DNA of 4,248 bases, taken from IMG/VR virus record IMGVR_UViG_3300014970_000027; one strand, 5' to 3'. Below, in pieces: positions 1,289 to 4,248 of this stretch. Source of the stretch: a virus. Lineage: Duplodnaviria > Heunggongvirae > Uroviricota > Caudoviricetes. The position numbers and the translations under genes are program-made. Below the pieces are notes generated by a model, which did not search any database, had not been told where the DNA came from, and saw only the letters and a program-made list of their open reading frames with translations. Position 1 is the stretch's first letter, and each line of letters opens with the position of its first letter.

Positions 1289-1860
1289 CCTGCACCTATC
1301 ATAAAATTAAAACAAGTTGATAGCAGTCAAATAACAACCAATTAAATACACAATCATAATCAGGATGATGTGCATTTATATTTTTATACACAAAATTATA
1401 GTTTGCAAATTTTAATAAATTTCATTTAAGATTAAATTATTATATGTATATTCTTTTTTATTCTAACGTATTTCAAAGTTACATTTTTCAACGCTTACTA
1501 TACTTTTTATTAACATAAACTCACTACAACGCACCTGAAACCTCTTGCTATATATATGTCAACCGTTTGAATTTAAAATAAAAAGAGTATCATTTTTACT
1601 TGCATTTCTTATCAAGTCACATTCAACAACAGTAAAAAAACATTATTAGAACCATTCAATTAACAAAAAACCAACATCCAGCTTGCTTAATTTTTCTTTA
1701 TTAAACGATATTGAAAATCAATTGATAAAATACATCTAAACAACCTTTTGGGGCGCAAAAGCATAACATCAAACAAACAAATAACACACCGAAAAAACTC
1801 ACAATTAATAACCTATGATATACATACTGTTTATTATGGTTGAATAAGCCACTCGATATC
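1289..1860 (-). promoter_or_regulatory. Extremely AT-rich, ORF-free upstream/leader region of appY; presumed promoter and nucleoid-protein (H-NS-type) silencing region
   Basis: The six-frame track shows no ORF of 60 aa or more on either strand. A hand-counted 60-nt sample at 1381..1440 is about 12% GC. The region sits directly 5' of the appY start on the - strand. Exact -35/-10 elements were not assigned. Confidence 0.5.
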
Positions 1861-1913
1861 TGGTGCTACGGAAGTGTCCACACGGTTTAGCAGCACCCGA
1901 TACTTTTTCCAGG

Positions 1914-1923
1914 NNNNNNNNNN
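1914..1923. other. Run of 10 ambiguous bases (N); assembly gap or masked sequence
   Basis: Literal nnnnnnnnnn in the sequence, located in the intergenic region 50 nt downstream (on the - strand) of the 97-aa gene stop. Confidence 0.99.
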
Positions 1924-1972
1924 AAGAAAAATTTAGTTTTCTTCCTCCGTTGCATATACAGCTCACCTTTTT

Positions 1973-2266
1973 TCACCCACGATTAACCAACAGCCAGACC
2001 AGCAGACACGCCACCACCGGCACAGCAAAATCCATCAGGCTTGCCACATCCCATGCACGTGTATCAAAACCGCCCCACCACGGCATATTCATTCGCTTGC
2101 CATGCCCGAACATTTCGATCCAGCGATATTCTGCCTGGGTGTGTTCACGCGCAATGAAGAACGTACAACCGGCTATCGCCCCGTAAGCCCAGTTTCCGGT
2201 AAAAAGACCAACCAGTACCTGCGCAGCCACAGCACAAAGTGCATGAAGGAAAGGTGTTATATCCAT
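1973..2266 (-). CDS. Small predicted multi-pass membrane protein (97 aa), unknown function; last gene of the tail-fibre operon
   Basis: ATG at 2266..2264 is preceded by a strong Shine-Dalgarno sequence (AAGGAGG, complement of 2271..2276) with a 4-nt spacer, 10 nt after the stop of the upstream 234-aa gene. The translation has two long hydrophobic stretches (about residues 9-38, ALCAVAAQVLVGLFTGNWAYGAIAGCTFFIA, and about 75-93, LMDFAVPVVACLLVWLLV) separated by a charged, aromatic-rich loop (REHTQAEYRWIEMFGHGKRMNMPWWGGFDTRAWD). No lipobox was found. Confidence 0.6.
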   Translation of the reverse strand: MDITPFLHALCAVAAQVLVGLFTGNWAYGAIAGCTFFIAREHTQAEYRWIEMFGHGKRMNMPWWGGFDTRAWDVASLMDFAVPVVACLLVWLLVNRG

Positions 2267-2276: not shown

Positions 2277-2981
2277 TTATCCGATATCGCTTCGGGAAGT
2301 TAATAACAACTTTAATTCTGACTCAAGTTCATCAACTCTTTCAGTCAGTTTCTGGATATGGTGAATCAGTGGAACAACCAGACGTTCGTACATTACACCT
2401 TCGGCAACAAGGCCATTGCTGGAAATAGCTTCAGGAGCATCATCTTCGTTAGCTGGTCGCCAGTGTACAAACTGAGGGGCAATTTCTCCTACTTCCTCGG
2501 CAATCAATCCGTAGAACCCCCAGTCACGCCTGTCATTTTCGCATTGCGACCTGTACCACACAGGGCGCATCCTGAAAATGACATCGGCGTGCTCTGAATC
2601 TATCGTCTCTACTGAATGTTTATAGCGAATAGACGATGTTGACCGCAGTACAGACGAAATTGCAGGGTCAGGATTAAGATAAAGGTTTGCCGCCGCTGTA
2701 GTCGTGCCCAATCCCCACAAATAAAACGCTTCACGGCCAGTCAACGGGTAAAAATCTCCACCATAACGACCGCTTTCCAGATCGTTCACTTCCAGTTTGT
2801 TTTTCAGCTTATTATCAACTTCAGTTTTTGTGTATCTGGTACTGATATCCTGCTTTGCACTGGTCATATCAGTCTGAAGCGTTGATACTTTTCCGTTAAT
2901 TGAGGAAATATCTTCCTTAGTTTTACTGACATCTCCCTTTAGCGTGGTGATATCTCCTGGAATTACTGTCGATGTAGCCAT
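2277..2981 (-). CDS. 234-aa protein: N-terminal coiled-coil region plus C-terminal intramolecular-chaperone-like domain (peptidase S74 / 'chaperone of endosialidase' type); probable short fibre or fibre-tip protein
   Basis: ATG at 2981..2979 with a GAGGGAG Shine-Dalgarno sequence immediately upstream, overlapping the stop of the 93-aa gene. Residues ~10-70 are heptad-like and rich in K/E/D/S/T (DITTLKGDVSKTKEDISSINGKVSTLQTDMTSAKQDISTRYTKTEVDNKLKNKLEVNDLES). Residues 116-234 carry the motifs I associate with the self-cleaving C-terminal chaperone domain of phage tail fibres/tailspikes: S-x-x-R-x-K (S116-S-I-R119-Y-K121, nt 2619..2636), then PVWY, GFYGLIAEEVGEIAPQFV, and YERLVVPLIHHIQKLTERVDELESELKLL. 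Confidence 0.7.
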   Translation of the reverse strand: MATSTVIPGDITTLKGDVSKTKEDISSINGKVSTLQTDMTSAKQDISTRYTKTEVDNKLKNKLEVNDLESGRYGGDFYPLTGREAFYLWGLGTTTAAANLYLNPDPAISSVLRSTSSIRYKHSVETIDSEHADVIFRMRPVWYRSQCENDRRDWGFYGLIAEEVGEIAPQFVHWRPANEDDAPEAISSNGLVAEGVMYERLVVPLIHHIQKLTERVDELESELKLLLTSRSDIG

Positions 2982-2985
2982 TTGT

Positions 2986-2992
2986 CTCCCTC
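2986..2992 (-). promoter_or_regulatory. Shine-Dalgarno sequence for the 234-aa gene, overlapping the stop codon of the 93-aa gene
   Basis: The - strand reads TGAGGGAGACAA-ATG, a 9-nt intergenic spacer. Confidence 0.55.
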
Positions 2993-3272
2993 ACATCCAG
3001 CCACGAAGTTGATGCTCAACAACAACCGCGTATTTATCGAATATTGACGATTTTTTTGCATCATTAATGATGCGCACGTTTACAAAATATCCGTCTTCCT
3101 TAACACATACCGGTTCGCCATCTTCAGTCAGTTCTCCGGTTTCTTTGTACACGTTACCTATCACGTCAATAAGAATATCATCCTGCATCGACTCGTCATC
3201 ATAATAGCCAATACTCTCCATAAAGGCCGAAAAGTCGGCCCTGTCTGCAAATTTGAGTGTTAAATCTTTCAT
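2991..3272 (-). CDS. Small acidic hypothetical protein (93 aa), translationally coupled between the tail-fibre gene and the 234-aa gene
   Basis: Its ATG (3272..3270) overlaps the TGA stop of the tail-fibre gene (3271..3269) in an ATGA arrangement. A GGGGGAG Shine-Dalgarno sequence lies 8 nt upstream (complement of 3281..3287). The translation MKDLTLKFADRADFSAFMESIGYYDDESMQDDILIDVIGNVYKETGELTEDGEPVCVKEDGYFVNVRIINDAKKSSIFDKYAVVVEHQLRGWM is strongly acidic and has no hydrophobic segment. I recognise no family. Confidence 0.6.
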   Translation of the reverse strand: MKDLTLKFADRADFSAFMESIGYYDDESMQDDILIDVIGNVYKETGELTEDGEPVCVKEDGYFVNVRIINDAKKSSIFDKYAVVVEHQLRGWM

Positions 3273-4248
3273 TTAATACTCTCCCCCATTTGCGCATCAG
3301 TTAATTCTTTATGCCAGATACGCAGATTACGGATATGACCAAAAAGATGATACTCCCCATTAGTGCCCTGCCCTCCAATTCGCAATACTGCCCGTGGAAC
3401 AATTGAAGTCCATGTTGTTTTTGCCGCAACAGATAATTCACCATTACATACGGCCTGAACATCTCCATCAGCGCCACAACGGAAGCCTGAAATGATTTTC
3501 CTCTGGGTTGTTGCCACATATTTATTACACCCTCCCATAGAAATAAAAGGAGAACCGGCATCAGAGAAATTATTACCACGGAATCCATGCGTGAACAGAC
3601 CATTTTCCTGATAATCTTTAACATTAAAGATTAATGGTGATTTGCTGGGAGGGATATCCCAGTTTTTATTAACTTCAACAAGAGCACTGAATGGTAATCG
3701 GTGAATATTGTTTCTTACAGGTATTGTCACCATGTCGCTGGAGCGAGTGCCAGGAGCCCCTTCAGTAATGATAAATGACGTCCTGTACGACCCAATCTCC
3801 GCCTGAGGCATCGCAATATCTAACGTAGAGCCATTGGGGATAATACTGATTCCAGGCATCGCCAGGATTTCAAATCTTGAGCTGATTATCATTTCCGCAT
3901 CTGCAAAAAGAGTGGCGGTAAACAACCACCATTCACCGACTCTTTCTGCCGTCACCGTCACATTATTTCCATGAACAACATTTCCCGTAACAGGATCCAG
4001 AGCTGCATCTGAATGAAAAACAAACGCACCATTATCAGACATTTTTCCGAACCTTGCACGACACCGGGAATTATCACTTTTCGTCAGACACGATATCGTC
4101 GTATAAGAACCTGCCGGGCAGGTGTAAGCATCATTCGTGTTTACAGCAATTGCCTGATATCCTTGTGCTGTCGGATTTTCATTAATAACAGTTATCCTTC
4201 CATAGTTAAACCCCTTATCACTGTCGAACGACTCAACAGACACACTAA
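3269..4248 (-). CDS. Phage tail-fibre / host-specificity protein, C-terminal region with lectin-like (LamG/concanavalin-A-like) distal domain; 5' end probably outside the window
   Basis: The reading frame is open to the window edge; the first in-window candidate start is a GTG at 4243..4241, so the gene is probably longer. Stop is TGA at 3271..3269. The C-terminal sequence ...RIGGQGTNGEYHLFGHIRNLRIWHKELTDAQM resembles the terminal signature of LamG_3-type jelly-roll domains (F-x-G-x-I-D-E-V-R-I-Y-N-R-A-L-S-x-x-E-I). The translation is rich in G/S/T/N and beta-strand-like. About 52% GC in a hand-counted sample at 2401..2460 of the same module. Confidence 0.7.
   Translation of the reverse strand, partial: SVSVESFDSDKGFNYGRITVINENPTAQGYQAIAVNTNDAYTCPAGSYTTISCLTKSDNSRCRARFGKMSDNGAFVFHSDAALDPVTGNVVHGNNVTVTAERVGEWWLFTATLFADAEMIISSRFEILAMPGISIIPNGSTLDIAMPQAEIGSYRTSFIITEGAPGTRSSDMVTIPVRNNIHRLPFSALVEVNKNWDIPPSKSPLIFNVKDYQENGLFTHGFRGNNFSDAGSPFISMGGCNKYVATTQRKIISGFRCGADGDVQAVCNGELSVAAKTTWTSIVPRAVLRIGGQGTNGEYHLFGHIRNLRIWHKELTDAQMGESIK

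What the first reader, a model, noticed from the sequence alone, without database searches (positions are those of the whole stretch)
3269..4248. Lectin-like (LamG/concanavalin-type) receptor-binding tip on the tail fibre
The final ~150 residues end in ...GEYHLFGHIRNLRIWHKELTDAQM, matching the terminal motif of LamG_3 jelly-roll domains. A lectin-fold tip would suggest a carbohydrate receptor (LPS core, O-antigen or capsule) rather than a protein receptor. Because the gene runs off the window edge, the shaft and attachment domains are not visible.
Basis: partly seen in the sequence, partly recalled or inferred. Interest (0 to 1): 0.45.

Follow-up and report, generated by a model that had tools for sequence, protein, structure and literature searches.

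The report
Lectin-fold end of prophage tail fibre
The region encodes the last 324 residues of a side tail-fibre protein of a defective E. coli prophage. It ends in two lectin-type beta-sandwich domains of a kind already seen in many coliphage lateral fibres, so it is real but ordinary.

Summary
On the minus strand, 3269-4248 is an ORF that is open at the window edge. It is the C-terminal 324 aa of a 781-aa lambda-Stf-type side tail fibre of the DLP12-type cryptic prophage next to appY. The quoted motif sits at nt 3287-3358.

The last ~150 residues (D2) are a LamG_3-type jelly roll:
- The Pfam hit is below threshold (16.6 bits against 27.6).
- A D2-only profile reaches bona fide multi-repeat Laminin_G_3 proteins at E 1e-14 to 3e-7.

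A second, more variable jelly roll (D1, NCBIfam GTA_spike_fiber, 66.8 bits) lies just upstream. The fibre belongs to a conserved module with a tightly linked 93-aa protein and a second S74-chaperone fibre. Published work on the IrisVonRoten homologue Gp22 calls it a proximal fibre with a "galectin-like" possible extra receptor-binding domain, not the tip.

Glycan binding is plausible, because D1's family is named for the capsule-binding RcGTA head-spike fibre, but it is untested. In the complete E. coli genomes I examined the prophage lacks a tail. This is a new member of a known kind and of low interest.

The parts
3269..4248 (-). 3' part of the side (lateral) tail-fibre gene 'A': the last 324 codons plus stop of a 781-codon gene. 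The ORF runs off the right edge of the window.
   Evidence: ORF. (full-length copy in E. coli C, L001:15001-17346, WP_000290529.1). (PF08400 N-terminus). (PHROG 1419 'tail protein', E=0, full length).
3740..4248 (-). Domain D1: an NCBIfam NF048003 GTA_spike_fiber-type beta-sandwich (full-length residues 434-625; the first ~22 residues lie beyond the window edge). It is the most variable part of the family.
   Evidence: 66.8 bits, cut-off 36, E 3.5e-18. (six phage homologues score 48-75 bits). (AF2, pLDDT above 90 in model 2). (mean pairwise identity 35%).
3734..3793 (-). Conserved connecting segment (ORF residues 152-171, ...GSYRTSFIITEGAPGTRSSD). T167, R168 and D171 are invariant. It overlaps the end of the GTA_spike_fiber model.
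   Evidence: invariant columns. (69% pairwise identity). (pLDDT below 50 when the hub is absent). (pLDDT 78-79 when the hub is present).
3287..3733 (-). Domain D2: the C-terminal LamG_3-type (concanavalin A-like) jelly roll, ORF residues ~172-320. This is the domain the finding is about.
3287..3358 (-). The quoted terminal motif GEYHLFGHIRNLRIWHKELTDAQM (ORF residues 297-320). This is the most conserved stretch of D2.
   Evidence: position. (block entropy 0.37-0.56 bits). (aligned to Laminin_G_3 profile positions about 125-149).
2991..3272 (-). Gene 'S': a 93-aa acidic protein of unknown function. Its start overlaps the stop of A by 4 bp. It is the invariable partner of this fibre type.
   Evidence: (phrog_1361, unknown function, E 1e-46). 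(present downstream of A in all 9 phage loci inspected). (186 phage records, against 205 for the A C-terminus, with the same taxon spread).
2277..2981 (-). Gene 'B': a 234-aa short second fibre protein. It has a conserved N-terminal adaptor (MATSTVIPGDITTLKG...), a coiled coil and a C-terminal Peptidase_S74 intramolecular chaperone domain.
   Evidence: PF13884, 27.2 bits, cut-off 22, residues 116-172. (phrog_3299 C-terminal part). (N-terminus shared with IrisVonRoten Gp24, phA11, JK16, PeterMerian and JenP2 B proteins).

Best explanation
Positions 3269-4248 (minus strand) encode the distal 'head' of a trimeric lambda-Stf-type side tail fibre of the DLP12-family cryptic prophage. The full 781-aa protein has these parts: an N-terminal tail-attachment domain; a long Ala/Ser/Thr-rich helical shaft; a very conserved ~100-residue hub; and then, on each chain, two tandem concanavalin A-like beta-sandwiches. 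D1 is of the GTA head-spike-fibre type. D2 is of the LamG_3 type and carries the quoted motif.

Most likely mechanism (inferred): the six jelly rolls at the end of the trimer act as non-enzymatic lectin modules that bind a surface polysaccharide (O-antigen, capsule or LPS) reversibly. They serve as primary-receptor adhesins, with the hypervariable D1 contributing most of the specificity and D2 acting as a second, more conserved binding or scaffold domain. The same fibre end also carries a second fibre protein (B, via its conserved N-terminal peptide), giving a branched fibre. It also depends on the co-translated 93-aa protein S, probably as an assembly factor or connector.

Shown: gene identity, domain composition, fold, family relationships, module synteny and the conservation pattern. 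Inferred: glycan binding, the roles of S and B, and trimer geometry. In the host genomes I could inspect, the prophage has lost its tail genes, so the gene is probably an unexpressed or unusable relic that can serve as recombination stock for incoming phages.
For: Identity: PF08400 at E 6e-67 and a position directly after a J-like gene. PHROG 1419 'tail protein' matches full length. Homologues are annotated lateral or side tail fibres in T5-like, T1-like, Dhillonvirus, Nonagvirus, lambdoid and rV5-like phages.

D2 is LamG_3: 19 of 36 family members hit PF13385 at the C-terminus. The D2 profile hits proteins that score 125-448 bits on PF13385.

D1: NF048003 scores 66.8 bits here and 48-75 bits in six phage homologues. 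The protein that family is named after, the RcGTA head spike fibre, binds capsular polysaccharide experimentally (PMC10218006).

Specificity-like variation: hub 70%, D1 35% and D2 49% mean pairwise identity. Against the window copy, hub is 50-87%, D1 24-42% and D2 36-49%.

The module persists without B in Perceval, Lambda_ev203 and Mangalyan, where the jelly rolls are the only distal domains.

Literature: lateral fibres of these phage groups are held to bind O-antigen (PMC8594841). IrisVonRoten Gp22's galectin-like domain is proposed as an additional RBD (PMC11990801).
Confidence: 0.6

Rival explanations
1. Docking platform rather than adhesin. The tandem jelly rolls, together with the hub and protein S, mainly form the structural junction that holds the distal fibre B. 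Receptor recognition is done by B, and in genomes without B by something else.
Against: The part conserved enough to bind a conserved B peptide is the hub (70% pairwise identity), not D1 (35%) or the middle of D2 (43%). The A+S pair persists where B is absent (Perceval, Lambda_ev203, Mangalyan). In T1-like phages B is only 224-231 aa, with no room for a large RBD. D1 belongs to the family of a capsule-binding protein.
Confidence: 0.22
2. Protein-receptor adhesin. The jelly rolls bind an outer-membrane protein, as lambda Stf binds OmpC, rather than a glycan.
Against: The C-terminal region shows no similarity to the Stf or gp37 tips. D1's family prototype binds capsule. The many CBM40, CBM22, galectin and pentraxin hits are sugar binders. 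Lateral fibres of the T1-like and T5-like groups that carry this module are regarded as O-antigen binders.
Confidence: 0.08
3. Inert relic. In this genome the gene is a decaying remnant of a cryptic prophage and has no present function, whatever the domains did in the ancestral phage.
For: In E. coli C the J-like gene is N-terminally truncated and abuts the small terminase gene, with no head or tail genes. In strain 2017.11.01CC the fibre gene itself is truncated and fused next to a portal remnant. In strain PKF8 an IS1 lies within the matched stretch (H1). A tfa pseudogene lies downstream.
Against: The ORF is intact over all 324 codons in the window, and 165 records are at least 99% identical. 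This reading does not exclude the biochemical one, because it concerns use and not mechanism.
Confidence: 0.1

Closest known systems
Escherichia phage IrisVonRoten (Bas32) Gp22, the proximal lateral tail-fibre protein (PMC11990801, Fig 12B)
   Same: A direct homologue. It is 36% identical over window ORF residues 12-324, and by part 87% in the hub, 31% in D1 and 43% in D2. It scores 56.9 bits on NF048003. It has the same A-S-B gene order with a 4-bp A/S overlap. The published AF-Multimer prediction shows a 'galectin-like domain' protruding from the C-terminus.
   Different: It has the N-terminus of a T5-type fibre rather than lambda Stf PF08400. Its B partner is a 574-aa T-shaped dual-RBD protein, against 234 aa here. 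It sits in a functional lytic phage rather than a defective prophage.
Rhodobacter capsulatus RcGTA head spike fibre (rcc01080), the prototype of NCBIfam NF048003 (PMC10218006)
   Same: D1 matches the family model over its full length (positions 1-181 of 182, 66.8 bits). The AlphaFold model described for the prototype is also a beta-rich 'quasi-two domain' lectin-like structure, and the protein binds capsule.
   Different: It is attached to the capsid through a 10-residue N-terminus rather than to the tail through a coiled-coil shaft.
Pfam PF13385 Laminin_G_3 (clan Concanavalin, CL0004)
   Same: The C-terminal motif aligns to profile positions 93-149. The D2 profile retrieves genuine PF13385 repeat proteins. 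The fold matches PAPP-A, laminin, perlecan and neurexin LG domains.
   Different: This copy and the nine homologues scanned one by one score below the gathering threshold, the best reaching 27.0 bits against 27.6 (the batch scan also peaked at E 5.6e-06). Only the C-terminal third to two-thirds of the profile aligns.
Lambda Stf side tail fibre
   Same: The N-terminal PF08400 domain and the gene position after J.
   Different: The distal half is unrelated. There is no gp37-like tip and no intact Tfa chaperone gene, only a 111-bp tfa remnant downstream. Instead the module is jelly rolls plus S plus B.
DT57C / DT571-2 LtfA-LtfB branched L-shaped fibres (PMC4728585)
   Same: The concept is the same: a proximal fibre protein carries a second fibre protein through the latter's conserved N-terminus, and both may bind receptors.
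   Different: LtfA ends in its own S74 autocleaving chaperone domain. Here A ends in jelly rolls with no S74, and a 93-aa gene lies between A and B.
Pseudomonas phage Pa193 gp46 / E217 baseplate wedge subunit (PDB 9b45, 8env)
   Different: It is a myovirus baseplate triplex subunit that anchors the fibre gp47, not a fibre. There is no detectable sequence similarity.

Membership tests
Pfam Laminin_G_3 (PF13385) | Score at or above the curated gathering threshold (27.6 bits) | tested here: not met
   The window ORF scores 16.6 bits at E 0.0087. The family is not reported at all on the full-length protein. The best homologues score 27.0 and 26.3 bits.
Pfam Laminin_G_3 (PF13385) | Homology to accepted members shown by profile search | tested here: met
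   The D2-only profile (A3) hits P0158, P0174, P0181, P0188, P0193, P0192 and P0211 at E 1.3e-14 to 3.4e-7 in a library of 1.84e9 proteins. These score 125-448 bits on PF13385, with matching positions in P0193 and P0211. 19 of 36 family members hit PF13385 at E<=0.01, always at the C-terminus.
Concanavalin A-like lectin/glucanase superfamily (LamG, pentraxin, galectin-type beta-sandwich) | Two-sheet curved jelly-roll fold superposable on solved members | tested here: met
Lectin (functional sense) | Demonstrated carbohydrate binding or a recognisable sugar or Ca2+ site | not testable with these tools
NCBIfam NF048003 GTA_spike_fiber domain | Score above the curated cut-off (36 bits) over the whole model | tested here: met
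   66.8 bits, E 3.5e-18, model positions 1-181 of 182, full-length residues 434-625. Six phage homologues score 48.3-74.6 bits.
Lambda Stf-type side tail fibre | N-terminal PF08400 attachment domain and a gene position downstream of the J tail-tip gene | tested here: met
   PF08400 at E 5.8e-67, residues 1-131, in the full-length E. coli C copy. A J-like 'phage tail tip domain' pseudogene lies immediately upstream. Both lie outside the window itself.
Lambda Stf-type side tail fibre | Cognate Tfa assembly chaperone gene immediately downstream | tested here: not met
   The genes downstream are S (93 aa, no Tfa similarity), B and a 97-aa ORF. Only a 111-bp tfa pseudogene remnant follows.
DT57C-type branched LtfA/LtfB fibre | The proximal subunit ends in its own Peptidase_S74 autocleaving chaperone domain | tested here: not met
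   There is no PF13884 in protein A. It is present only in B (27.2 bits). For LtfA see PMC4728585.
IrisVonRoten-type A-S-B lateral fibre module | Gene order A (hub + GTA_spike_fiber + LamG-like end), a ~92-aa S gene overlapping A by 4 bp, and B with the conserved MxTxTVIPxDITxLK N-terminus and an S74 C-terminus | tested here: met
   The window has A at 3269-4248, S at 2991-3272 and B at 2277-2981. The same order occurs in IrisVonRoten, phA11, JK16, PeterMerian and JenP2.

The most novel reading that the evidence does not exclude
The interesting unit may be the conserved 'hub + tandem jelly rolls + 93-aa protein S' cassette rather than the LamG domain alone. This cassette is shared by lytic T1-like, T5-like and rV5-like phages and by temperate lambdoids. 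It could act as a universal plug-in fibre head: a lectin adhesin in its own right, and also a socket, built with the uncharacterised protein S, onto which interchangeable distal fibres (B, 224-586 aa) are mounted. If so, S would be a new class of tail-fibre assembly or connector protein, and the cassette a general route to branched, dual-specificity fibres in siphoviruses and myoviruses.
Probability: 0.25. Interest if true: 0.45.

Novelty: new member of a known kind. Interest (0 to 1): 0.2.

Why it matters
The practical value is modest. The analysis supplies a domain map (hub, D1 GTA-spike-fibre type, D2 LamG_3 type) for a widespread coliphage lateral-fibre family that standard Pfam annotation leaves blank after the N-terminal domain. 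It identifies D1, not the LamG domain, as the most likely host-range determinant. It also flags the always-linked 93-aa protein as an untested partner. This could guide fibre swapping in T1-like and T5-like therapeutic phages. It also shows that cryptic DLP12-type prophages hold a ready-made fibre cassette that incoming lambdoid phages could capture. None of this changes current understanding of phage adsorption.

Tried and rejected
1. A sequence search of the C-terminal 432 aa, and of the D2 profile, against all PDB chain sequences gave only chance-level hits. The structural relationship is visible only by fold.
2. Megablast against the phage collection found only a 119-bp match at the S-proximal end. 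Protein-level search was needed.
3. I considered the DT57C LtfA/LtfB model as the template and rejected it for membership, because LtfA ends in S74.
5. Model 2 (438 aa including the hub) was meant to show how the hub packs against D1. As a monomer the hub did not fold (pLDDT 33-44), so the junction geometry remains unknown.
6. Protein S gave no Pfam, NCBIfam or meaningful PDB hit.
7. Literature searches for LamG plus tail fibre plus O-antigen returned nothing relevant.

Full report
**What is at the coordinates.** The feature lies on the minus strand. An ORF has its stop codon at 3269-3271 and is still open at the window edge, 4248.

The window is the appY-proximal end of a DLP12-type prophage of E. 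coli. The 249-aa AraC-family ORF at 539-1288 corresponds to appY. The target ORF is 99.9-100% identical to a gene present in many complete genomes. In E. coli C the gene is intact: 781 aa, WP_000290529.1, 'prophage tail fiber N-terminal domain-containing protein'. It lies directly downstream of a truncated J-like tail-tip gene. The ORF is not a chance reading frame. The C-terminal 432 aa match 2490 database proteins at E<=1e-3, and 205 phage genomes match the window ORF by tblastn.

**Architecture of the whole protein.**
- Residues 1-131 are Pfam phage_tail_N (E 6e-67), the lambda Stf attachment domain.
- Residues ~110-345 are Ala/Ser/Thr-rich repeats typical of a helical shaft.
- Residues ~350-456 form a 'hub' that is nearly invariant across the family.
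- Residues 434-625 match NCBIfam NF048003 GTA_spike_fiber over the whole model (66.8 bits, cut-off 36).
- The last ~155 residues carry the only Pfam signal in the window part, Laminin_G_3.

PHROG 1419 ('tail protein') matches end to end. The window therefore contains most of the GTA_spike_fiber domain (D1, nt 3740-4248) and all of the terminal domain (D2, nt 3287-3733).

**Is the last domain LamG-type?** On its own the Pfam evidence is weak: E 0.0087 and 16.6 bits against a 27.6-bit gathering score, covering only residues 263-319 (profile 93-149 of 151). The hit disappears when the full-length protein is scanned. Three independent lines make the call solid.

1. The signal is family-wide and positionally constant. 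19 of 36 diverse homologues hit Laminin_G_3 at E<=0.01, always at the extreme C-terminus. The best are 27.0 and 26.3 bits, and one alignment reaches profile positions 40-149.
2. A profile built from D2 alone (alignment A3) was searched against 1.84 billion representative proteins and found 275 hits. Among them are large repeat proteins at E 1.3e-14 to 3.4e-7. Seven of the ten intermediates I scanned score 125-448 bits on Laminin_G_3, and two more score just below the cut-off. The Pfam domain coincides with the matched stretch where I could check (P0193 and P0211).

Foldseek aligns both domains at once to tandem-repeat galectins and to neurexin LNS5-EGF-LNS6. In the viral structure library, the hits after the direct homologues are mostly proteins labelled 'Concanavalin A-like lectin/glucanases superfamily'. 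So the fold claim is right, and it applies to two tandem domains rather than one.

**Context that changes the 'tip' reading.** Downstream on the same strand lie three further genes:
- A 93-aa ORF (S, 2991-3272) whose start overlaps the fibre's stop by 4 bp.
- A 234-aa ORF (B, 2277-2981) with a Peptidase_S74 intramolecular-chaperone domain (27.2 bits, cut-off 22).
- A 97-aa hydrophobic ORF (1973-2266), followed by a tfa pseudogene remnant.

The A-S pair recurs in every phage locus I opened: IrisVonRoten and phA11 (T5-like), JK16 and PeterMerian (T1-like), JenP2 (Nonagvirus), Ioannina (Dhillonvirus), Lambda_ev203 and Perceval (lambdoid), and Mangalyan (rV5-like). S is found in 186 phage records against 205 for the A C-terminus, with the same taxon spread.

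B is present with a conserved N-terminus (MxTxTVIPxDITxLK) in six modules, but its length varies from 224 to 586 aa. It is absent from Perceval, Lambda_ev203 and Mangalyan.

The literature already covers one member. In PMC11990801 (Fig 12B legend), IrisVonRoten Gp22 is described as a proximal fibre to which the T-shaped, O16-targeting RBP Gp24 attaches. [quoted passage not shown] The DT57C LtfA/LtfB branched fibre (PMC4728585) is conceptually similar but differs in architecture, because LtfA ends in S74.

**What the conservation pattern says.** Mean pairwise identity across 36 homologues:

| Region | Mean pairwise identity |
|---|---|
| Hub | 70% |
| D1 | 35% |
| D1-D2 connector | 69% |
| D2 overall | 49% |
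| D2 middle | 43% |
| D2 terminal stretch | 57% |

Against the window copy, nine phage homologues are 50-87% identical in the hub, 24-42% in D1, 36-49% in D2 and 38-54% in S. All six phage A proteins tested pass the NF048003 cut-off.

A constant hub with a rapidly diverging D1 is what one expects if the hub makes conserved protein contacts (trimerisation, S, the B N-terminus) and D1 faces a variable ligand. The conserved C-terminal motif of D2 is also the most conserved part of Laminin_G_3 generally, so it is best read as a core strand and not as a functional site. When modelled as a monomer the hub does not fold (pLDDT 33-44), which fits an oligomer-dependent structure.

**Most likely mechanism.** I commit to the following at about 0.6. 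The six jelly rolls at the end of the trimeric fibre are non-enzymatic lectin modules that bind a surface polysaccharide reversibly as a primary receptor, with D1 the main specificity determinant. The same fibre end carries B, giving a branched fibre, and needs S.

Support for glycan binding is indirect:
- The prototype of D1's family, the RcGTA head spike fibre, binds capsule (PMC10218006).
- Sugar-binding CBM40, CBM22, galectin and pentraxin domains are prominent among the fold matches.
- Lateral fibres of these phage groups are generally assigned to O-antigen (PMC8594841).
- The module stands alone without B in some phages.

Independently of mechanism, the copy in the complete genomes I inspected sits in a prophage without tail genes. 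In some strains it is itself truncated or IS1-disrupted, so in situ it may be an inert relic.

**Novelty and verdict.** The kind of object is already known: a lectin-fold C-terminal domain on a coliphage lateral or side tail fibre. It has a curated NCBI domain model for D1 and a published structural prediction for a 36%-identical homologue. This DLP12 copy is a new member of that kind.

What this analysis adds:
- Proper evidence that D2 is LamG_3-related.
- Recognition of the tandem arrangement.
- The uneven conservation pattern across hub, D1 and D2.
- The tight linkage to the uncharacterised 93-aa protein.

Interest is low (0.2). The most novel reading not excluded is that hub + jelly rolls + S form a general plug-in socket and adhesin cassette for branched fibres (probability about 0.25).

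Noticed in passing
window 2991-3272 (-): A 93-aa acidic ORF (phrog_1361, unknown function) whose start overlaps the fibre stop by 4 bp. It follows this fibre type in all 9 phage loci opened and occurs in 186 phage records against 205 for the fibre C-terminus. It has no Pfam, NCBIfam or PDB match. It is probably an obligate assembly factor or connector, and is uncharacterised.
   Followed up: partly
window 2277-2981 (-): A 234-aa 'mini-fibre': a conserved N-terminal adaptor shared with IrisVonRoten Gp24, a coiled coil and a Peptidase_S74 chaperone domain (residues 116-172). After autocleavage only about 115 residues would remain. The same short form (224-231 aa) exists in the lytic T1-like phages JK16 and PeterMerian, so it is not simply a deletion remnant. 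What such a stub does is unclear.
   Followed up: partly
window 1973-2266 (-): A 97-aa hydrophobic ORF (phrog_1443, unknown function). In the lambdoid phages Perceval and Lambda_ev203 a 97-aa ORF with a near-identical N-terminus follows S directly, in place of B, and is itself followed by a sitABCD cargo operon (L004, L011). It may be a membrane moron or a superinfection-exclusion gene.
   Followed up: no
window 1915-1924, within about 1834-1953 (-): A run of 10 N inside the remnant of a tail-fibre-assembly (tfa) pseudogene. The bases flanking the N run differ from E. coli C, and the window is 9 nt longer there. This may be a masked or unresolved stretch rather than biology.
   Followed up: partly
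window about 1290-1950: There is a sharp composition step. GC is 25-32% through the appY region and its upstream intergenic stretch (lowest over 1251-1750), and 41-49% in the fibre genes from about 1950 onward. This marks the junction between phage structural genes and the AT-rich appY/ompT/envY segment.
   Followed up: no
L001:16027-16347 (-), i.e. protein residues ~350-456, just outside the window: The 'hub' upstream of the jelly rolls (QPLPDVWIPFNDSLDM... FKRASGATYINKSG... EPRFEREGLLIEGQRTNY) is 67-87% identical between this prophage and lytic T5-like and T1-like, Dhillonvirus, Nonagvirus and lambdoid phages, and 50% in the rV5-like phage. The adjacent D1 is only 24-42% identical. The hub fails to fold as a monomer in AF2 (pLDDT 33-44). 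It is the likely true docking or trimerisation element.
   Followed up: partly
L001, L002 and hit H1 (E. coli C, strain 2017.11.01CC, strain PKF8): The fibre locus is decaying in different ways in different strains. In E. coli C the J-like gene is truncated against the small terminase gene. In 2017.11.01CC the fibre gene itself is N-terminally truncated next to a portal remnant, and RefSeq then names it 'phage head spike fiber domain-containing protein'. In PKF8 an IS1 lies within the matched stretch.
   Followed up: partly
phage hits (e.g. MG065654.1, OR848352.1): Records labelled Campylobacter phage (135 kb, rV5-like in size) and Listeria phage (short unannotated fragments) carry this E. coli-type fibre module. 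These are probably mislabelled or contaminated records rather than cross-phylum transfer.
   Followed up: no
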